In this document: positions 12,682 to 62,020 of the stretch, in pieces
How the letters are laid out: each line of letters begins with the position of its first letter
Numbering within the stretch: the first letter of the stretch is position 1
From: a virus
Taxonomy: Duplodnaviria > Heunggongvirae > Uroviricota > Caudoviricetes
IMG/VR virus record: IMGVR_UViG_2645727901_000008
DNA: 64,000 bases
Strand: one strand, 5' to 3'
The notes under the pieces: generated by a model
Told to the model about the DNA's origin: nothing
Databases searched by the model: none
Seen by the model: only the letters and a program-made list of their open reading frames with translations
Program-made: the position numbers and the translations under genes

Positions 12682-12814
12682 GGTTAAGCCCTAAATTCGG
12701 GCGCGGCGTGAAGGTTCTTTTGACGGGCTAACAATACCTACTTTGTGATTTAGTCAATAGGTTTAGTAAAATAAAATCTATTAACACTCATGTTGTTATG
12801 TGGTTTAATTTTAG

Positions 12815-12828
12815 TTTTCTAACACAAA
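12815..12828. promoter_or_regulatory. C1-type operator-like site TTTTCTAACACAAA
   Basis: Member of a recurring TTTTCTAACA motif family; immediately upstream of ATG 12840. Confidence 0.5.
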
Positions 12829-12839
12829 TCATTAGAGTT

Positions 12840-20868: not shown

Positions 20869-20912
20869 CCAATTGTGTTAGAAAATTCTATTCAATTATC
20901 TAACACAATTGG
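20869..20912. promoter_or_regulatory. Palindromic pair of C1-type operator-like sites upstream of hrdC
   Basis: CCAATTGTGTTAGAAAATT / AATTATCTAACACAATTGG near-perfect palindrome. Confidence 0.55.
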
Positions 20913-33937: not shown

Positions 33938-34256
33938 TTGACACCCCCAGCGCGAGTAAAGAATGCAGATTATCGCGTGAGTGGCGGACAACGAGTGATG
34001 GGAAAAGACAGTAGCTGTTCATAGTGTAGTGACTCCTTGCTTTCGGAGCCGCCATCGACTGTTCCACGGTCTGGTGGCGGCGCAATAAAGGCTGGAACAC
34101 CGTGAGTCAACGGGGGCTTTTCAGCCACCTATATTGCACCGCCATAGGTATAGCGGCGGCAATAATACGAAAAACTAAACAGTTTGTCTCAAAAAGTTGA
34201 CCGGTGTGCCAATCGGTAGTGAATGTACATCGGAGAAATTTACAATTCAACTTAAA

Positions 34257-34271
34257 ATGTTAGAAAACTAA
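34257..34271. promoter_or_regulatory. C1-type operator-like site ATGTTAGAAAACTAA
   Basis: Nearly identical to the site upstream of the c1-like gene; faces the sim-like/c4/icd/ant region. Confidence 0.45.
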
Positions 34272-34846
34272 TTTATCAATTCAATCGCCATCTGATACAA
34301 CGTCATTTCATCGGCATTGTGCCGCATGAAATCTGCTTTTCCGCCTATTTTTCCGTCAGCATGAACAGGGACCAGCCAGGGATATTGTTCTCGGACCTCG
34401 GCTGGCGCTGCGTACTGGTGGTGCCATTTACACAAAGGGAGGACATATTTATGCGCGTTCTCTGCCGTTCTCCCGAAGATATGGTGCAGGGATACTACTG
34501 GGCTATGTTGTCCGTGAATATGGCAGGCAATGCAGGGGAGAGTACCGATAGCGGTCTGTATCCGGCGTTCATCAGCTGTGAGTGATCTGCCCTTCAGGCC
34601 GCGTGACGTGCGTGTTTTTTTGGGCGGAGCGGATACAGCTTTATCTTTTCTCCGCTGTTCATATTGCTTTGCTTTTTCAATTTTCTTTTGCCGATATTCA
34701 GGCGATGCGGCTTTTTCTCTCGCTCGCTGCTGCTGGCGTTGAGCTTGTTGAAGGCGCTTTGCCCTTTGTTCCTCTCGCCAGGCCGGGTCAGCCAATTTTT
34801 GCATGGCTTTTTGTCTCTGTTTCTCCCAATAGCTCTGTTTCTGCAT
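34268..34846 (-). CDS. ref: Ref-like HNH endonuclease
   Basis: Lys/Arg/Gln-rich N-terminus then HNH-like core CIACHIHG...HHIFGR...CKWHH. Confidence 0.7.
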   Translation of the reverse strand: MQKQSYWEKQRQKAMQKLADPAWREEQRAKRLQQAQRQQQRAREKAASPEYRQKKIEKAKQYEQRRKDKAVSAPPKKTRTSRGLKGRSLTADERRIQTAIGTLPCIACHIHGQHSPVVSLHHIFGRTAENAHKYVLPLCKWHHQYAAPAEVREQYPWLVPVHADGKIGGKADFMRHNADEMTLYQMAIELIN

Positions 34847-34893: not shown

Positions 34894-34929
34894 CTGTTAG
34901 ATATTCAAAATTGATTTTCTAACACAAAA
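34894..34929. promoter_or_regulatory. Pair of C1-type operator-like sites in the divergent ref region
   Basis: CTGTTAGATAT and TTTTCTAACACAAAA. Confidence 0.5.
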
Positions 34930-35118
34930 CATTAATATCATTCCTGATAACTGTTTGGAGGACATGATGCTTATAGCTTTAAGTGCGATCCACCAGCCAT
35001 CTGTGAATGAAATTGGCCTGTTCTATGTGTTGTTTTTCGGGGCGTTGGCGCTACTTGAGCTTGGTATTGAGCTTTTCGCAGTGCTTATGTTTTGCGTCAC
35101 GATTTTGGGGAAATTTTG

Positions 35119-38228: not shown

Positions 38229-38263
38229 TGCGTTAGAACATTGATTTTAGTTTTCTAACATAT
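38229..38263. promoter_or_regulatory. Inverted pair of C1-type operator-like sites
   Basis: CGTTAGAACA ... TTTTCTAACATAT upstream of ATG 38303. Confidence 0.5.
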
Positions 38264-38302
38264 TATTTTACCACTCGGAACAAAACAGAGTCGGTATGCA
38301 TT

Positions 38303-47811: not shown

Positions 47812-48306
47812 TTATAACTTTTCGTACTGAAGCGGTGAACGCTTAATTTCAAAGTGGCCTTCCGATGTGCTACCAAAGCCACCAGCACCACGTTCCGTTT
47901 CGTTGAGTTCCTCAACCTCGACTAGTGAGACTTGTTCAACACGCTCAAAAATGCCTTGCATGACAGCCATTCCTGGCTTGAGACAAACGCCTTCCCCGCC
48001 GGGATCAGTAATCAGTTTTGCCATGATTTCACCGCGATAATCGGAGTCGATAATTCCTACGCAGTTAGCCAGGCGAGTATGTTTTTTGCAGCCCAATCCG
48101 GATCGCGGATAGAGTTTCAGACACCAGCCGGGCGGGATCTCCATAGCCAGTCCGGTATACACCCACCAGCTTGAGGAAATTGCACCATTGCTATCGACGC
48201 ATGTTTTTATTTCAACAGCCTCAAAATCCATCGCCGCCGATCCGGAGGTGGCATAAGCTGGAAGTTTTGCTGCCGGATGTAGGCGTTTCACTTTTACGTA
48301 AATCAT
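47812..48306 (-). CDS. dut: dUTPase
   Basis: Motifs YPRSGL, GIIDSDYRGE, RGAGGFGSTS. Confidence 0.75.
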   Translation of the reverse strand: MIYVKVKRLHPAAKLPAYATSGSAAMDFEAVEIKTCVDSNGAISSSWWVYTGLAMEIPPGWCLKLYPRSGLGCKKHTRLANCVGIIDSDYRGEIMAKLITDPGGEGVCLKPGMAVMQGIFERVEQVSLVEVEELNETERGAGGFGSTSEGHFEIKRSPLQYEKL

Positions 48307-48779
48307 TGTTTTTTAGCTCTCTGCGTGAAGGTGTAAACCCGACGTTTGATATGTGGAACGGTAGGAACAGGAAGACAGGAACTTTCAATAACCCCTTGCT
48401 CCTCCAGCGATCGCACCGCCCGCAAGAACTGCGACGTGTCGCCGCCAAACTGGCGGGCATAGGTGCTGCCGTTAAGAAGTATTTGAGCTATTACCCGAGC
48501 TTTTGTCTGGCTGTCACGATATGCGAATAGCCGCACGGCCTCTTCTGGCGCAATCGCTAACTGATAGCCTTTACCGGCACGGTGTCGAATGAATCCATGC
48601 GCCAGTAGGTTTTTGAGTTCGTTACGAGTGCGAACAGATCCGTAATCCAGGAAGTGCGGATTAATAACGACTGGCTTAAACCATTCCGTAGGTGCTTTAG
48701 CTAATAGAGCTAACAGCTTTCCGGACAATTCTGGATAGGAAGACGGGTAACAATTCAGAGATGGGTAATAAGTTTTCAC
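48303..48779 (-). CDS. Hypothetical protein
   Basis: 158-aa coupled ORF. Confidence 0.4.
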   Translation of the reverse strand: MKTYYPSLNCYPSSYPELSGKLLALLAKAPTEWFKPVVINPHFLDYGSVRTRNELKNLLAHGFIRHRAGKGYQLAIAPEEAVRLFAYRDSQTKARVIAQILLNGSTYARQFGGDTSQFLRAVRSLEEQGVIESSCLPVPTVPHIKRRVYTFTQRAKKQ

Positions 48780-49120
48780 CGACGCCCCCTTGCAGGATAT
48801 CGACCTGCATCAGTATCCGGTGCGATAAAGCCGGTAGTGGGGCGAGTGAAAGCGAGATTAATCTTCTCGACCATAGTGCGATAATTTTCCTGATAGTGGG
48901 CCAGGAGTTTTTCGGCGGCAATGATGGTTACTTTCCGGACGTAGCTTTCTGCTTCCTCCAGATTTCGCCAGTTTTTTTCGAGGGTAAACACAGGGACGGC
49001 CTCAAGCCCGGTCATGATGCCGAATACAACGACAGCATGACTGTTCTTAACACCAGCAGCGAAGGTTACGGTGTAACCATCCACCTTAAAGCGTCTTGAT
49101 TCCGTGATTTGACTCTGCAA
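48776..49120 (-). CDS. Hypothetical protein downstream of operator
   Basis: 114-aa ORF. Confidence 0.4.
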   Translation of the reverse strand: MQSQITESRRFKVDGYTVTFAAGVKNSHAVVVFGIMTGLEAVPVFTLEKNWRNLEEAESYVRKVTIIAAEKLLAHYQENYRTMVEKINLAFTRPTTGFIAPDTDAGRYPARGRR

Positions 49121-49174
49121 AGCACCCTCCGAAATAGGCGAGGGTACTTTACAGCAAAGATAACAATCTAAAAA

Positions 49175-49190
49175 GATGTGTTAGAAATTT
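49175..49190. promoter_or_regulatory. C1-type operator-like site
   Basis: GATGTGTTAGAAATTT between the cre stop and the next gene start. Confidence 0.45.
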
Positions 49191-49193
49191 AAT

Positions 49194-50222
49194 TTATGAA
49201 TCCATCAGGCGGCTATTAGCCCCCACAGACACGCCGCCACGGCGCAGATACCGCATAAGTGTTTCCGGTTTCTTCCAGGTTCCTTCCTGCATGATCTCCA
49301 CCATAGACACCTGCTTTTCAGCCATATCGATAGCGGCCCCGACACGAGCACTATGCCCGGTCCACGTCCGGTATCTCCCTTTGTTTGGCGTGGCATCTCT
49401 TTTATTCAGCAACACCCAGGCGTCGCTGAATATTTTCTCCATTGCAGGTGCAGTAAGGGGAGTTGTCGTAATCCTGGCCTTATTGCTACGGTGTATCGGC
49501 GGGAACAGCACCGCGTCAGGATGTTCACGAAGCCCGGAAACATCCAGCCAGTCATTCAGCACTGCGGTAGTGCGACGGGAAAGCACCTTATCAAGCCCGG
49601 CGGCGGTCGTTATTGTCTTCGTGTGTGAAATATGTAGCGTGACAGTGTCACCTGTTTGGTCCAGATCTCCTACACGAATACGCGAGATTTCAGACATTCG
49701 CATCAGCGTATTGTATGCAACGAAGAGGAAAGCCCGGTTACGCAGGTCCACCAGCCGTTCTGACCTGGACAACAGGACGTCGAGCAGTTTCAGATCGTCC
49801 CACCGCAGCGGTATAGCCTGGCCTGTTCGTTCGCCTTTTTCCGTTGCCGCTTCGCGCCGGATGCGCCGCATAGCCAGAGAAACACTTTTATCATCCGAAA
49901 GTGGCGGAAGGCCACAATGCGAAAGCAGCATGTTAAGCATGGCGTAGTGCTTATCAATGGTGGTCGAAGCCAGATCAGCATCATGCAGCTGAAGAAAATA
50001 CTCGCGGGCCATCTCTGGTGAGATCGGGAACCAAGCGAGCTGGCGAGCGTGGCACCATCGCGCCCAGGAGTGAAACACTAACCGGAGATCGCGCAAAGTA
50101 TTCGGCGCGTAAGCCCCCTGGTCATTCATGAACCGCATAAAGTTTTCTGCGGCCTCCTGGTACTCTTTGCCAATGTTGCGCAGAAAACCACCGGAGCTGC
50201 CAGAGATAATTAATTCACTCAT
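49194..50222 (-). CDS. cre: Cre-like tyrosine site-specific recombinase
   Basis: Extended similarity to P1 Cre as recalled (HSWARWC, WFPISPE, SVSLAMRRIRRE, WTGHSARVGAA, LMRYLRR). Confidence 0.9.
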   Translation of the reverse strand: MSELIISGSSGGFLRNIGKEYQEAAENFMRFMNDQGAYAPNTLRDLRLVFHSWARWCHARQLAWFPISPEMAREYFLQLHDADLASTTIDKHYAMLNMLLSHCGLPPLSDDKSVSLAMRRIRREAATEKGERTGQAIPLRWDDLKLLDVLLSRSERLVDLRNRAFLFVAYNTLMRMSEISRIRVGDLDQTGDTVTLHISHTKTITTAAGLDKVLSRRTTAVLNDWLDVSGLREHPDAVLFPPIHRSNKARITTTPLTAPAMEKIFSDAWVLLNKRDATPNKGRYRTWTGHSARVGAAIDMAEKQVSMVEIMQEGTWKKPETLMRYLRRGGVSVGANSRLMDS

Positions 50223-50371
50223 GAAACTATTTAACCTCTATATACAGATGACGCTACGCAAAAATATAAAAATGACAGGGTAGCTATAAGTTAATTTTCA
50301 AAATTCAAGCCTTTGATTCGAGGCACGTATTTTTAGTGATGTCAACACTGATCATCTACCCATGATTATAG

Positions 50372-50407
50372 TCTAACTTTAAATAATGCCAATTATCTAA
50401 AGTTAGA
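50372..50407. other. lox-like recombination site
   Basis: TCTAACTTTAAATA-ATGCCAAT-TATCTAAAGTTAGA: 14-bp inverted arms (1 mismatch) around an 8-bp asymmetric spacer, about 150 bp upstream of the cre start. Confidence 0.7.
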
Positions 50408-50493
50408 AACTTAGGAATTTTTTTCCTTTCCCCGTAGATGGGCAATGCATTGCTGGCGTGGGCTTTAAGTTATGCCTGGCAGTTTTTAAGCAG

Positions 50494-50594
50494 AATTTTC
50501 TAAATTGGATGACAAAAAAATGCATCTTGATCCTTTACTCACCCTGTTATTCGGCATAGATTTGTCATAGTAATTTTATGTTAGAAAACTAAAT
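50494..50594. promoter_or_regulatory. Operator-like sites upstream of the c1-like gene
   Basis: ATTTTCTAAAT (about 50494) and ATGTTAGAAAAC (50578-50589). Confidence 0.45.
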
Positions 50595-50606
50595 CGAGTA
50601 GGAATA

Positions 50607-51644
50607 ATGAGTAAGAAGTCGATCGAGAAAGAGTACAAACGGTTCCTGCAAACCGCTGAACGGTGGAAAGAGCTGGTGGTCGCAAACTCTGTTTTCCATG
50701 ATACCAGTTATGCCGGCGAGGAATTCCGCCACGTTGCACTAACACATGATCAGAATGTACTAGAAGAAGCTGAAAAGTGCCTCACAGAATGGAAAGCCTT
50801 TGTTGACTTGTGCCGTAACGCTGACGGCAAAGCGTCCAACATTGTTGAGTCTGTATATTCTCCGATCCCATTCATTATTGAGGACACAAATCAAAGCACG
50901 CATATTGTTGTGCAAAGCGCGACCACCACCCGCTCATTTACGCGCGAAAATCTGCTCAAAAAATATGATGCAATTATAAAGAAAAGCCTGAAAAACAAGA
51001 TATTTTCGCAGATTGTTGGTGCACTTGAAGAAGAGCGCCGTTTTTTCGCATCAGAACCTGAAGGGGAAGTTTACCGGGCGCGCAAAGATGGATACACAGA
51101 TGTAGTGCTTACAACAAACATTGAAGGCAGCAATGCTCTGTCACGATTCAGGGTAGGCGCACACGGAGCCTTAGTGTTCGCAAAACTTCCGAACACCACA
51201 GTGCCCGTTGTTAATAATGTCGGCGAACGTCGCAGCATTACTATTTATTCTGGGGTTGAGTCGATACCTTGCGGCCTGCTTGGTGACTTTAGCCTCTATC
51301 GCGTTCGCGATCTGGAGAAACACCAACCAAGCTATGTTGCGAAGTCATATATCTTGCGAAACATCGACATCCGCAATGAGAGCTTAAAGAACAAATCAGC
51401 CAAAATGCTTGAGGAAGCCGATCCGGCTATTCGCCATATCATTGAGCGTAAAATACAGACAGCACGCGAAGCGATGGCGAGACTGAATAAAATGGATCTG
51501 GAGTTGTTAGACGTAATGATGACATCCGGAGATGACCTGACAGGCATAAAACTGACAGACGCGCGGAAAAGATACGGTAAAACCATAGAAGAACGTTACG
51601 GGTTCACTTTCTCCCAAACACAGCACGCCGCTAAACTCTGGTAA
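50607..51644 (+). CDS. Putative C1-like master repressor (assignment by position)
   Basis: 345-aa ORF between lox/cre and pacB, preceded by clustered operator-like sites; no recognisable motif. Confidence 0.4.
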   Translation: MSKKSIEKEYKRFLQTAERWKELVVANSVFHDTSYAGEEFRHVALTHDQNVLEEAEKCLTEWKAFVDLCRNADGKASNIVESVYSPIPFIIEDTNQSTHIVVQSATTTRSFTRENLLKKYDAIIKKSLKNKIFSQIVGALEEERRFFASEPEGEVYRARKDGYTDVVLTTNIEGSNALSRFRVGAHGALVFAKLPNTTVPVVNNVGERRSITIYSGVESIPCGLLGDFSLYRVRDLEKHQPSYVAKSYILRNIDIRNESLKNKSAKMLEEADPAIRHIIERKIQTAREAMARLNKMDLELLDVMMTSGDDLTGIKLTDARKRYGKTIEERYGFTFSQTQHAAKLW

Positions 51645-51649
51645 TCACA

Positions 51650-51672
51650 AGCCCCGCATTGCCGGGGCTTTA
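51650..51672. terminator. Bidirectional rho-independent terminator
   Basis: GCCCCG-CATTGC-CGGGGC hairpin with flanking A/T runs. Confidence 0.6.
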
Positions 51673-53178
51673 TATATCCAGATCTGGCATTTCCACATCT
51701 GCAAGAACCTGATCGCGGAAGGTAGCCATTTCAGCGCCGATATCTTCATTAGCAGGAACATAGTCCACCAGCATTGTAAAGCAGTAGGTATCCCATCGGT
51801 CAGGTGATTTGATGTTCAGCTTTTGCCGCATGTGCTCCTTGCGCATCATCGCCATCTTCCCTTCTTCATTAAGTAAAAAGGGGATTTTTGACGCTTGCTC
51901 TGCCGTTTTAGGGTCACTGTCTATTCGCATACGACCTGACTTTATGGCATCACGAGCCATAATATTTGCGTAGGCACGTTGGTTAACAAAACGCTCCTTG
52001 TCTTTGTTCGAAAACATGGGTTTCCCCCACCGAATACGTACCGGATTAGCCCCACGGCGCACCAGCTGCGCACAGGTATCTGAACCAAAACCGTCTGCGT
52101 CAACCGCGATTGTAATATTCGGGTATTTATCCGGCGTGCATTCGTTGTATATAAAGTCAGCAAAAGCCAGCGGGTCCATAGTCCCTGGCATTTCCATTAT
52201 CTTAAAGTTAACAACGCGCCGCTTATTCCTGTGACCTGACACCTTGCAGATGTTAAGGACCGACTTGTCTCGCCCGTTCCCAACGTCAGCTGTCGCTACC
52301 CACCCCCAATTTTTCTCCAACAACACCTTGCGCCGCGCAGCGCGATCGCATTCATCACGACCAAGCAAATAGCCGTTAATCTCCCGAGGGAACTGACCAA
52401 GCACCTTAACCATATACTCAATAGAATCGCGCCCGCCATATTCCAGGAGTTTCTGCCTGATGAATTGTGGTGTGACGAACGGTGATTCTTCTGAGTTAAG
52501 AACAATTGCTGTCCAGATCCCTTTCGGGTTGTCTGGGGTTTTAGCTTGAGAATGGTGCGAATCGTAGAAATAACCACTTGGCCTTGTTGGCTGGGATAGC
52601 ATCAACATTCGGTTATCTTCTTCAGTAAGAGCACCGGTCATTACGCCGATCGCCTTATCAGATATACCAGATGCTTCATCCAGAATTAGAAGCAAATGTG
52701 CCGCGTGTTCCCCCGCCAGCGCTTCTTCGTTGCCGAGTCGATAACCTTTGCAGAGAACTTCCCAAATCCCCTTACGGGAGCGCTCATAAAACATGGTGTC
52801 AGAGAGGACAAAATAGGTCTGCAACCACCCATGACGCTTAACTGCATTCGCCCAATACTGTTTAACGTATTTGAATACGCCTGTTTTTACCTGGCCTATC
52901 TTGTTAGCAACAATGATGACACGGGCATCGGGGAACAGGATCATAAAAATCAACAGCAACATCGCGGTAAGGGACGACTTCCCCGTTCCGTGTCCGGACG
53001 TGACGGTAGTCCTACTCCCCGTTTCCTGCACTGACTGAATGATCTGCTGCTGCTGGTGGGAGGGGAACATCCCAAAAATATCGACAACAGCCTGGGTAAA
53101 GTTGTAGCGGTATTTGATTACCATATCGCGCCAGCGTGGATCGCTGGTGACGCATTTAATCTTGCGCCCGCCAGCCAT
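51670..53178 (-). CDS. pacB: Terminase large subunit (PacB-like)
   Basis: Walker A GHGTGKSS; 502 aa; GGAGGATG RBS. Confidence 0.8.
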   Translation of the reverse strand: MAGGRKIKCVTSDPRWRDMVIKYRYNFTQAVVDIFGMFPSHQQQQIIQSVQETGSRTTVTSGHGTGKSSLTAMLLLIFMILFPDARVIIVANKIGQVKTGVFKYVKQYWANAVKRHGWLQTYFVLSDTMFYERSRKGIWEVLCKGYRLGNEEALAGEHAAHLLLILDEASGISDKAIGVMTGALTEEDNRMLMLSQPTRPSGYFYDSHHSQAKTPDNPKGIWTAIVLNSEESPFVTPQFIRQKLLEYGGRDSIEYMVKVLGQFPREINGYLLGRDECDRAARRKVLLEKNWGWVATADVGNGRDKSVLNICKVSGHRNKRRVVNFKIMEMPGTMDPLAFADFIYNECTPDKYPNITIAVDADGFGSDTCAQLVRRGANPVRIRWGKPMFSNKDKERFVNQRAYANIMARDAIKSGRMRIDSDPKTAEQASKIPFLLNEEGKMAMMRKEHMRQKLNIKSPDRWDTYCFTMLVDYVPANEDIGAEMATFRDQVLADVEMPDLDI

Positions 53179-54931: not shown

Positions 54932-55005
54932 TAATCCCCCGGGCAGGAAATGACCGAGGGGATGATAATGAGAATGTTAAAACTGTATAGACTGGTAAAA
55001 AGATG

Positions 55006-55026
55006 ATTATATTAGAAAATTAATAT
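55006..55026. promoter_or_regulatory. C1-type operator-like site upstream of lpa
   Basis: ATTATATTAGAAAATTAATAT. Confidence 0.4.
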
Positions 55027-55039
55027 TAAATACCTAACG

Positions 55040-58895: not shown

Positions 58896-59383
58896 ATGCG
58901 GCACTCTCTCCGCCCGTCACCGTTCTGTCTCGGTTGTCGCGTTTGCCACGCCAGCCGTAACGAGGTTTAAAGTCTTTGCACGTTTCCATCACTCGACTGC
59001 CGTCTGTGGCTGTTCGTTGCAGCGGGGGTGCCTCCCCCTGGGGATATCCCCGGCCTTACCCCATTCTTTCAAGACACAATGCAAGGCCGCATCCGCATAG
59101 GTGCATTACCGCAACATTAAGGAGACTTAGGGCAAAAGGTAATCGCCACAAAAAAAATCCCTATGCCTCCTTAATGTTGAGGATGTGCATTGATGATGAT
59201 TCGATGCGGCGAGTCCCGTTACTCTCTGCCGGACCATCATCAATGAACATCTTAAAAAGACCTTCCGTGGCTCAACATGTCTTGTCGTTTACTCCGTAAA
59301 GTGCTCTCTCTGAAACCACTTTACGCACTAAACCTGCTGAACTTTGGCTTGCTCGGTGCCAAAGCGAGTCCCTGTATGTATGT

Positions 59384-59398
59384 AATTTTCTAACACTT
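59384..59398. promoter_or_regulatory. C1-type operator-like site
   Basis: AATTTTCTAACACTT. Confidence 0.45.
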
Positions 59399-59540
59399 TA
59401 ATTTGTTATTTGCTGGTGGGCGAACAACAACCAATAAGTGACTATCAAGCCCAGCAAGCGAAATGTGGCAACGCTCCACCAGCAAGGAAAATTCTAAGTT
59501 AAGTTACTCTCACAATCAATACGTTCGTTTAGTGAAATTA

Positions 59541-59555
59541 GATTTCTAACATTTT
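59541..59555. promoter_or_regulatory. C1-type operator-like site
   Basis: GATTTCTAACATTTT at the 3-prime end of the 406-aa gene. Confidence 0.45.
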
Positions 59556-60774
59556 ATTTCCCATAAAGATCTTCTACGCCCCCATTCTTCTTGTCCCATT
59601 CGTTAGCCCACACCCGGCAGGCATCAATAATTTCTTGACGACGGTCGCCCTGCATAAAGGGGATGCTTTCATGAAAACTACTTGGGATACAGGCCACGCT
59701 GAATACGGTATCAAACGCAGTCTGTTTGATAGCTTCCAACGTCTCTGGGCGCATTTTCAATTCATCGATCGGCGCATCCTTAGAGTCCATAATCCGGCGA
59801 TGCAGGCGCGGGAAATCAGTCTCCAGGTACGCCATAATTTTATCTGCCAGGCATTCGTCTATATCGGTATTCCAGTCCGTTTCGAAGCCGGGCAGGCGAT
59901 AGTAAAGCGGCGTTCCCCATACTGATGGGATCACATCCATCGTCAGCAGGCGGTTGGTTCTAATTTGTTGATGGTAATTAGCCGTCAACAGAGCTTCACC
60001 ACGCTGACCAGTCTCCGCAACCAGACCATGCGGGTACTCATGGATATAGGCAATAGCATCCACCCCGTCATACATGAGCGGGAATGTCTCTGGCCTTTGT
60101 CCCATACCACAAGCGCGGTTCAGATCATGACCAAGCTGTGAGCACTCTCGTTTCAGCGTTTCAATAATGTTCTGCGCTGTTGCTAACTTTTTACGCAGTG
60201 TGACGCCTTCGCCTTGATACTTAATGCATTGCTGATTCAGCTCTGTTAAACGCTCTTTTAGTTCCCGACGCTCTCTTTTCAGCGCACGGTTATCCTTCTC
60301 CGCAACATCCAGTCGTTTTGACAGACTGGCTGGATAGTCTTTTTTGTAACGACTCAAATCGGCTTCTGCGGATTTGCGCAGTGTGTTTGCCTGTTCAAGA
60401 CGCGCTTCCAGATTACCGATCTCACTACGCATATTCGCGGCAAATTGATTAACAGCATTGCCAAGACTTTCAACTGTCGCTGATACGCCTGTGACTTGTG
60501 AAAAACGGATCAAGCCATCATTAACGGCTTGTTGATATCCCTCAAACTGATCCACCAGCTTGTTGTAATCAACCGTCCCTTCCTCAAGTAGCTGGTTGAT
60601 CTCCGCGACCAGGTTATCAGTAGTGGCAATGACGCTCTCATGTAACCGTCTGGACAGGTCATCCCCCGGATTCCGCTTTTGAATAAGGGCGATCTGTGTC
60701 CGCAGCGTTTCAATCGCGGCTGAGATGATTTCCAGATTAGAAGTATCAGTTTGTTGACTCATTGCAGTTCCCAT
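59554..60774 (-). CDS. Operator-controlled coiled-coil protein
   Basis: ATG 60774 (or 60762) just downstream of the operator; long N-terminal coiled-coil. Confidence 0.5.
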   Translation of the reverse strand: MGTAMSQQTDTSNLEIISAAIETLRTQIALIQKRNPGDDLSRRLHESVIATTDNLVAEINQLLEEGTVDYNKLVDQFEGYQQAVNDGLIRFSQVTGVSATVESLGNAVNQFAANMRSEIGNLEARLEQANTLRKSAEADLSRYKKDYPASLSKRLDVAEKDNRALKRERRELKERLTELNQQCIKYQGEGVTLRKKLATAQNIIETLKRECSQLGHDLNRACGMGQRPETFPLMYDGVDAIAYIHEYPHGLVAETGQRGEALLTANYHQQIRTNRLLTMDVIPSVWGTPLYYRLPGFETDWNTDIDECLADKIMAYLETDFPRLHRRIMDSKDAPIDELKMRPETLEAIKQTAFDTVFSVACIPSSFHESIPFMQGDRRQEIIDACRVWANEWDKKNGGVEDLYGK

Positions 60775-60790
60775 TGTTTTTTGCAAGATT

Positions 60791-60806
60791 AGTTTTCTAA
60801 CATATT
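60791..60806. promoter_or_regulatory. C1-type operator-like site
   Basis: AGTTTTCTAACATATT. Confidence 0.5.
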
Positions 60807-60844
60807 TTATTAGTATGAGAACAAGAGCGAAAGATGTGATAAAC

Positions 60845-61388: not shown

Positions 61389-61832
61389 TTAATCAAGACA
61401 AACATATTCCGTGATAGCTTTTATGGCTTCATCGGCACTGCGCGCCTCAAAGCAGTAATAGCCTGCTTCCGTGAGGCGAGTCATCCAGACGAGCTGTTCG
61501 GGAGTCAGACGGTTTCTCCCGTGCTTCATCTCAATGCGCATTCCGTGATACCCACCACGAGCAAGGTCAATAGAAAGGTCCGGATAGCCCTTCTTCTGAC
61601 CTTCTGCCACCATCTTAATGGCTGTCCTTTTGCCTCTCAGGCCGCCGTTCGGTGTTGAGTGTGTGTGCTCATACACGTATCGCATGTTGCGATACAGCCA
61701 ATCCAGAACGCGAACCTGTTCGTAATGTTCGTAATTCCGTTTTAATAAGTCAGGATTTCTTTCTAACTCTCTCAGTGCAGCAGCGTGCGGGGATATTTCA
61801 GAATACGCACTATGATGCCTGCGTCTTCGCAT
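61389..61832 (-). CDS. VRR-NUC-type (PD-(D/E)xK) nuclease
   Basis: GYPDLSIDL...HGMRIEMK core; ATG 61832 abuts the operator. Confidence 0.65.
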   Translation of the reverse strand: MRRRRHHSAYSEISPHAAALRELERNPDLLKRNYEHYEQVRVLDWLYRNMRYVYEHTHSTPNGGLRGKRTAIKMVAEGQKKGYPDLSIDLARGGYHGMRIEMKHGRNRLTPEQLVWMTRLTEAGYYCFEARSADEAIKAITEYVCLD

Positions 61833-61834
61833 CA

Positions 61835-61849
61835 AATTTCTAACACAAA
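61835..61849. promoter_or_regulatory. C1-type operator-like site
   Basis: AATTTCTAACACAAA immediately upstream of the VRR-NUC start. Confidence 0.5.
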
Positions 61850-62020
61850 CTTACTGAATTCATGAACACGATAATAACAAGAGCGTTAGTTTTATCAAAC
61901 CGAGGGGAATACTACTGAAGAGATAGGCGGATGCAACAGGTCGGACTTGTTTTTAGAGTAAATGGTGATGCGGGTCAACAAGCCGGGTAAATTGTATGTC
62001 ATTTACCCAACTTGTTATTT

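What the first reader, a model, noticed from the sequence alone, without database searches (positions are those of the whole stretch)
49194..50407. Cre-like recombinase with a variant lox site (new Cre/lox specificity pair)
The 342-aa recombinase aligns with P1 Cre but is clearly diverged, and the nearby 36-bp site has the lox architecture (inverted arms around an 8-bp asymmetric spacer) with arm sequence TCTAACTTTAAATA instead of the loxP arm, sharing only a TAACTT core. This predicts an orthogonal recombination system. The right arm also resembles the dispersed operator motif (GTTAGAAA).
Basis: partly seen in the sequence, partly recalled or inferred. Interest (0 to 1): 0.7.

Follow-up and report, generated by a model that had tools for sequence, protein, structure and literature searches.

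The report
Known Dre recombinase and rox site
This is not a new Cre/lox-type pair: it is the well-known Dre recombinase of phage D6 (protein 100% identical) beside its rox site, which carries one natural base change also found in many related phage-plasmids.

Summary
A 342-aa ORF (49194-50222, minus strand) is a Cre homologue: 41.6% identity over the aligned columns, E 5e-69 to Cre structures. A lox-like palindrome lies 150 bp upstream at 50372-50407.

It is not new. The protein is 342/342 identical to Dre of Escherichia phage D6; all 33 nucleotide differences are synonymous. The site matches the annotated 32-bp rox site at 31 of 32 positions (T to C at window 50397). Gene order (dut-orf3-orf2-dre-rox-c1-pacB-pacA) is that of D6, so the window is a D6-like, P1-family phage-plasmid.

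The T/C difference is a common natural polymorphism: 21 T and 9 C among 30 IMG/VR contigs, and both alleles occur in the E. coli, Salmonella and E. fergusonii plasmids sampled. The identical Dre protein occurs with both alleles, so no new specificity is implied. Left and right flanks reassort exactly at rox among relatives, which suggests both alleles are active and cross-compatible.

The arms are better described as 14-16 nt around a 4-bp core (GCCA); 14-8-14 is the loxP-aligned view. The GTTAGAAA motif really is over-represented (13 copies against 1.9 expected) and is probably the C1 operator. The copy abutting rox shares only the 8-mer and looks coincidental.

Verdict: already known, low interest.

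The parts
49194..50222 (-). dre: Cre-type tyrosine recombinase, 342 aa
   Evidence: ORF listed. 342/342 aa identical to D6 Dre (AAV84949.1 / ASR76376.1), with 33 nt differences, all synonymous. Pfam Phage_integrase E 5.3e-17. Cre structures E 5e-69. Catalytic residues R175, K202, H290, R293, W316 and Y325 are present.
50374..50405 (+). rox site, 32 bp: TAACTTTAAATAAT-GCCA-ATTATCTAAAGTTA
   Evidence: 31/32 identical to the feature annotated in AY753669 as 'region of crossover (rox) site for Dre recombinase'. Unique in the window, 0 expected by chance.
50372..50407 (.). Extended palindrome in this window: 16-nt arms, 4-nt gap, one mismatch.
   Evidence: repeat I1. The outer 2 bp of symmetry are not conserved in relatives.
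50397..50397 (+). Polymorphic base in the right arm: C here, T in D6. It is position 24 of rox, or half-site position 8 in loxP-style numbering.
   Evidence: IMG/VR contigs show 21 T and 9 C. The identical Dre protein occurs with both alleles.
50365..50392 (-). Sigma-70-like promoter pointing at dre. The -35 TTGGCA (50392..50387) lies in the rox core, the spacer is the left arm, and the -10 TATAAT (50370..50365) lies just outside rox.
   Evidence: 11/12 consensus match. 48 of 2000 dinucleotide shuffles of the intergenic region do as well. The -10 hexamer is conserved at 90% or more across 35 distinct haplotypes. Function not tested.
50607..51644 (+). c1: prophage repressor, 345 aa
   Evidence: 90% identical to D6 C1; same position as in D6.
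50572..50597 (+). Strong copy of the dispersed motif (AATTTTATGTTAGAAAACTAAATCGA) just upstream of the c1 ATG; probable C1 operator
   Evidence: Invariant in 6 diverged relatives.
49172..49197 (+). Another strong copy of the motif, between dre and orf2
   Evidence: score 28.1.
50402..50409 (+). GTTAGAAA 8-mer overlapping the right end of rox; probably coincidental
   Evidence: Its flank score is -12.7, the 75th percentile of random positions, whereas the 11 good sites score +9 to +20. Absent in D6.
47812..49120 (-). dut, orf3 and orf2 homologues downstream of dre
   Evidence: ORFs. Collinear with AY753669 at 94.7% identity and with the D6 annotation.
51670..53178 (-). pacB: terminase large subunit, 502 aa
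   Evidence: ORF. Same length and position as D6 pacB. Weak Terminase_6N match. Covered by the D6 match.

Best explanation
The window is a D6-like, P1-family phage-plasmid, and the feature is its Dre/rox site-specific recombination module, the D6 counterpart of P1 Cre/loxP. By homology with Cre, four Dre monomers would bind the arms of two rox sites. They would cut and exchange strands in the central region through Tyr325 and a Holliday-junction intermediate, with the asymmetric GCCA core setting orientation. In the phage this would circularise incoming terminally redundant DNA and resolve plasmid-prophage dimers before partition. That role is inferred by analogy with P1 Cre/lox and from the conserved position next to c1 and pacAB. 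The single T-to-C change in the right arm is a neutral or nearly neutral natural allele of rox, not a new specificity.
For: Shown directly:
- The protein is 342/342 identical to D6 Dre and all six catalytic residues are present.
- The site is 31/32 identical to the annotated rox site.
- Gene order and sequence are collinear with D6.
- 146 plasmid records and 126 complete E. coli genomes carry the locus.
- dre is under very strong purifying selection: pN/pS is 0 to 0.08, and against D6 there are 33 synonymous and 0 non-synonymous differences.
- The C allele is in 9 of 30 IMG/VR contigs, and the identical Dre protein is paired with both C and T.
- Haplotypes to the left and right of rox reassort. 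CP058654 has the window's dre (3 nt differences) and left flank but the D6 right arm and flank, and the switch maps between 50373 and 50397, inside rox.

From the literature:
- Dre recombines rox and does not cross-react with Cre/loxP. rox has 14-bp repeats and a 4-bp spacer, and its functional crossover region is probably as long as that of loxP (PMC4777119).
[quoted passage not shown] My mapping of the variant to position 8 is an inference from that paper's loxP numbering.
Against: No recombination assay exists for the C allele. [quoted passage not shown] The roles in circularisation and dimer resolution are inferred from P1, not shown for D6-like elements here. The reassortment at rox could in principle come from homologous recombination within the conserved 32 bp rather than from Dre.
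Confidence: 0.93

Rival explanations
1. This is a new Cre-like recombinase paired with a new lox variant, i.e. a novel orthogonal specificity pair.
For: The protein is only 41.6% identical to Cre. The arms differ from loxP in the block that sets specificity. The site differs from published rox at one base.
Against: The protein is identical in every residue to Dre. The site is 31/32 rox. The same protein sequence sits next to both the T and the C allele in nature. Dre/rox has been known and used since 2004.
Confidence: 0.02
2. The C-allele site is a decaying, poorly functional rox, and the module is a remnant in a domesticated plasmid.
For: The change breaks the perfect symmetry of the arms (15 of 16 complementary). 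Dre prefers canonical bases at most positions.
Against: The allele recurs in many independent plasmids and viral contigs and with several left-flank haplotypes. dre beside it is intact and under strong purifying selection. The position is not among Dre's strongest determinants. From general knowledge of lox66/lox71, Cre-type enzymes tolerate much heavier single-arm mutation.
Confidence: 0.04
3. The palindrome serves mainly as a transcriptional control element, either a C1 operator or an autoregulated dre promoter, rather than as a recombination site.
For: GTTAGAAA overlaps the right end of the site. An 11/12 sigma-70-like promoter uses the rox core as its -35 and a conserved TATAAT as its -10, and it points at dre.
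Against: The operator match is limited to the 8-mer, with background-level flanks, and is absent from D6. A promoter overlap would add to recombination, not replace it. The site is the experimentally defined rox. 2.4% of shuffles give an equally good promoter match.
Confidence: 0.25

Closest known systems
Dre recombinase / rox site of Escherichia phage D6 (GenBank AY753669, MF356679; Sauer & McDermott 2004, as cited in PMC4777119)
   Same: The protein is 342/342 identical. The site is 31/32 identical, with the same 14-4-14 layout and the same GCCA core. The position between dre and c1, next to pacB/pacA and dut-orf3-orf2, is the same.
   Different: One base in the right arm (C instead of T at 50397). 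There are 33 synonymous differences in dre. The sequence immediately to the right of rox is unrelated for about 100 bp (53.6% identity in the 50401-50500 block), and c1 is a different allele (90% aa identity).
Cre / loxP of phage P1
   Same: The same fold family and catalytic residues, with an end-to-end alignment (E 5e-69). Both have inverted arms around an asymmetric core, and the arms share a TAACTT outer block and an ATA inner block. Both have the same genomic role next to c1 and pac in a P1-family plasmid prophage (P1 biology from general knowledge).
   Different: Only 41.6% identity. loxP is 13-8-13 (34 bp) and rox is 14-4-14 (32 bp). The arms differ at three consecutive positions (half-site positions 8-10). 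The two systems do not cross-react (PMC4777119).
Other Cre-type pairs used as orthogonal tools (VCre/VloxP, SCre/SloxP, Vika/vox, Nigri/nox, Panto/pox)
   Same: The same kind of system: a Cre homologue with its own lox-like palindrome (titles and abstracts).
   Different: These are different proteins and sites. I made no direct comparison because the identity to Dre settles the assignment.

Membership tests
Dre/rox (phage D6) | Protein sequence equals Dre | tested here: met
   342/342 identical to AAV84949.1 and ASR76376.1. The same protein occurs as WP_001292231.1 in plasmids.
Dre/rox (phage D6) | 32-bp rox target: TAACTTTAAATAAT GCCA ATTATTTAAAGTTA | tested here: met
   31/32 identical; one T>C change at position 24. 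That change is a common natural allele.
Dre/rox (phage D6) | Location between dre and c1, next to pacAB, in a P1-like phage-plasmid | tested here: met
   Collinear with the AY753669 and MF356679 annotation.
Dre/rox (phage D6) | Dre-dependent recombination at this exact site (C allele) | not testable with these tools
   Indirect evidence only: flank haplotypes reassort with the breakpoint inside rox.
Dre/rox (phage D6) | No cross-reaction with Cre/loxP | not testable with these tools
   Reported for the identical protein in PMC4777119.
Tyrosine recombinases (Cre type) | Catalytic R-K-H-R-W-Y set and Phage_integrase domain | tested here: met
   R175, K202, H290, R293, W316 and Y325 present. PF00589 E 5.3e-17. 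Cre structures E 5e-69.
Cre/loxP (phage P1) itself | Cre protein and the 34-bp loxP site | tested here: not met
   41.6% identity to Cre. The site is rox, not loxP.
Dispersed GTTAGAAA operator-like motif (putative C1 operator of the D6 group) | Fit to the extended ~26-nt motif, not just the 8-mer | tested here: not met
   The rox-adjacent copy scores 2.2 in total (flanks -12.7, 75th percentile of random positions), against 24-33 for the 11 good sites.

The most novel reading that the evidence does not exclude
rox may do double duty. Its core and left arm would form the -35 and spacer of a conserved dre promoter, so that Dre bound at rox represses its own gene. Dre-mediated exchange at rox between co-resident D6-like phage-plasmids would also be the route by which the c1/immunity side is swapped against the rest of the genome, with the T and C alleles fully cross-compatible.
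Probability: 0.3. Interest if true: 0.3.

Novelty: already known. Interest (0 to 1): 0.08.

Why it matters
It matters little as a discovery, because Dre/rox is a long-established tool. There are three modest points of value:
- A natural rox allele (C at position 24) co-occurs with wild-type Dre in many elements. It could be tested cheaply as a tolerated arm variant.
- Natural haplotype data show rox as a sharp mosaic junction in D6-like phage-plasmids.
- The possible overlap between a dre promoter and rox could matter when rox sites are placed in bacterial constructs.

Tried and rejected
- **Original Dre/rox paper.** I tried to read it by DOI and by PMC534624, but it is not held. The rox definition therefore comes from the GenBank annotation and from PMC4777119.
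- **Literature searches.** Searches for a D6 C1 operator, for cre promoter regulation and for the D6 genome paper returned nothing usable. One script failed on a missing file and one alignment call failed on a malformed sequence reference.
- **C1 operator at rox.** I considered that the palindrome might be a C1 operator and rejected it, because only the 8-mer core matches.
- **Functional 16-nt arms.** I considered that the 16-nt arm extension in this window might be functional and rejected it, because the outer 2 bp vary among relatives.
- **P1 comparison.** From memory of the loxP sequence, no comparable -35 lies in its core. This was not tested with tools.
- **Not run.** I did not run structure prediction, fold search or large protein searches, because 100% identity to Dre made them unnecessary.

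Full report
**Observation.** The ORF at 49194..50222 on the minus strand is real, at 342 aa with an ATG start. It aligns over residues 22-341 with every Cre structure in the PDB copy (best E 5e-69). Of the 317 aligned columns, 132 are identical, i.e. 41.6%. Pfam gives Phage_integrase at E 5.3e-17. In the 384-bp gap between this ORF and the next gene, the repeat finder reports an inverted repeat at 50372-50387 / 50392-50407: TCTAACTTTAAATAAT / ATTATCTAAAGTTAGA, 16 nt, 15 of 16 complementary, 4 nt between the arms. The symmetry actually continues 2 bp further inward on each side, leaving a 4-bp asymmetric core, GCCA.

**What it is.** A megablast of 49000-50700 against phage records hits only Escherichia phage D6, and the features under the match are annotated 'dre: tyrosine recombinase', 'c1' and 'region of crossover (rox) site for Dre recombinase'. 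The window's protein is identical at all 342 residues to Dre in both D6 records. The genes differ at 33 nucleotides, all synonymous. The annotated 32-bp rox site is TAACTTTAAATAATGCCAATTATTTAAAGTTA. The window has TAACTTTAAATAATGCCAATTATCTAAAGTTA at 50374-50405, one T-to-C change at 50397. The pattern occurs once in the window, against 0.00 expected. The catalytic residues listed for Dre in PMC4777119 (Arg175, His290, Arg293, Trp316, Tyr325) are all present, as is Lys202.

**Context.** The surrounding genes are collinear with D6: dut, orf3, orf2, dre, rox, c1, pacB, pacA. Identity is 94.7% to the D6 immC record and 92.6% over the next 13.5 kb of the complete genome. The window is therefore a D6-like, P1-family phage-plasmid. 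Similar loci occur in 146 PLSDB plasmids, most of those listed about 90 kb and the D6-type ones fetched typed rep_cluster_1704, from E. coli, Salmonella and Shigella. They also occur in 126 of 5426 complete E. coli genomes. The closest match is NZ_CP122510.1 at 99.3%.

**Is the one-base difference a new specificity? No.** I fetched 15 plasmid loci across the identity range and 30 IMG/VR contigs that carry either allele.
- The identical Dre protein (0 differences) sits beside the C allele in CP122510, CP100711 and OY754373 and in two IMG/VR contigs. It sits beside the T allele in D6, CP058654 and six IMG/VR contigs.
- Among the IMG/VR contigs the count is 21 T to 9 C.
- Dre homologues of only about 89% identity also carry either allele.
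- dre is under very strong purifying selection, with pN/pS of 0 to 0.08.

[quoted passage not shown] In that paper's loxP-style numbering the variant falls at position 8. That mapping is my inference from the numbering and from the stated 25% difference between rox and loxP. Position 8 lies within the three-base block (8-10) that distinguishes rox from loxP, so a small affinity effect cannot be excluded.

**Natural evidence that the site works.** Against D6, the window is about 97% identical to the left of rox. Identity falls to 53.6% in the 100-bp block just to the right, and c1 is 76-91% identical at the DNA level and 90% at the protein level. Plasmid CP058654 has the window's dre (3 nt differences, against 33 for D6) and the window's left flank. 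From the T/C position onward, however, it has the D6 right arm and D6 right flank. The switch maps between 50373 and 50397, inside rox. Across 47 loci there are 35 distinct haplotypes, and left and right flank types occur in many combinations. This is what repeated exchange at rox would produce. It suggests that the T and C alleles recombine with each other, although homologous recombination within the conserved 32 bp is not excluded.

**Mechanism.** What is shown is the identity to Dre/rox. From the literature, Dre recombines rox as efficiently as Cre recombines loxP, without cross-reaction. The functional crossover region of rox probably reaches into the first base of each repeat, so it is similar in length to that of loxP (PMC4777119). 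From Cre homology I infer that four monomers act on two sites, with cleavage by Tyr325 and a Holliday-junction intermediate. By analogy with P1 Cre/lox, and from the conserved position next to pac and c1, I infer roles in circularising terminally redundant infecting DNA and in resolving prophage-plasmid dimers.

**The operator remark.** GTTAGAAA occurs 13 times against 1.93 expected. Eleven copies share a much longer motif, roughly AATAATGTGTTAGAAAACTAATTT, some with an inverted TCTAAC partner about 16-17 bp downstream. One copy lies about 20 bp upstream of the c1 ATG and is invariant in six diverged relatives. These are good candidates for C1 operators of the D6 group. The copy at 50402-50409 is different. 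Four of its bases are the outer GTTA of the rox arm. Its flanks score -12.7, the 75th percentile of random positions, against +9 to +20 for the good sites. D6 and many relatives have GTTATAAA or GTTACAAA at this position. I regard it as coincidental.

**Seen in passing.** A sigma-70-like promoter matching 11 of 12 consensus positions lies on the minus strand across rox. Its -35, TTGGCA, is the rox core. Its 16-nt spacer is the left arm. Its -10, TATAAT, lies 3 nt outside the arm. Of 2000 shuffles of the intergenic region, 2.4% do as well. However, the -10 hexamer is conserved at 90% or more even in lineages whose neighbouring flank has diverged. Dre bound at rox could therefore repress dre. 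This is untested.

**Verdict.** The mechanistic reading is correct but the novelty claim is refuted: this is the already known Dre/rox system carrying a common natural rox allele. Interest is low.

Noticed in passing
window 50365-50392 (minus strand): A sigma-70-like promoter (11/12 match) straddles rox and points at dre. The -35 TTGGCA is the rox core, the spacer is the left arm, and the -10 TATAAT lies 3 nt outside the arm. The -10 is conserved across 35 haplotypes. Dre may autoregulate through it.
   Followed up: partly
window 12806-12831, 20869-20894, 34251-34276, 34906-34931, 38242-38267, 49172-49197, 50572-50597, 55003-55028, 59377-59402, 59533-59558, 60784-60809, 61827-61852: A dispersed motif of about 26 nt around GTTAGAAA (consensus AATAATGTGTTAGAAAACTAATTT). 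The 8-mer occurs 13 times against 1.9 expected. Some copies have an inverted TCTAAC partner about 16-17 bp away. It is probably the C1 operator set of D6-type phages, and one copy abuts the c1 start.
   Followed up: partly
window 50373-50397, compared with L007 (CP058654), L001 (D6) and L003: There is a sharp mosaic junction inside rox. Relatives combine the window-type dre side with the D6-type c1 side and vice versa. The ~100 bp to the right of rox exists in at least four unrelated versions.
   Followed up: yes
window 49194-50222 compared with L001:1524-2552: There are 33 nucleotide differences from D6 dre and not one changes an amino acid (pS 0.133, pN 0). This is unusually strict conservation of the Dre protein across the plasmid population.
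   Followed up: yes
L016 (Shigella dysenteriae CP026816), site about 150 bp upstream of its dre homologue: A more diverged natural site, TAGCTTTAAATAATACTAATTATCTAAAGTTA (left arm A>G, core GCCA>ACTA), lies next to a Dre homologue of 89.5% identity. A changed core could make it incompatible with canonical rox.
   Followed up: no
L015 (CP080067, IncY) and L017 (CP034789, IncFIB, 159 kb): Dre homologues of about 89% identity, with intact rox, occur on plasmids typed IncY and IncFIB/MOBH rather than the D6-type replicon. This suggests the module has moved or that these are cointegrates.
   Followed up: no
window 50338-50358: A conserved block, TGTCAAYACTGWTCAT, lies to the left of rox. It contains a GATC (Dam) site, and its reverse complement carries a perfect TTGACA. 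Its role is unknown.
   Followed up: no
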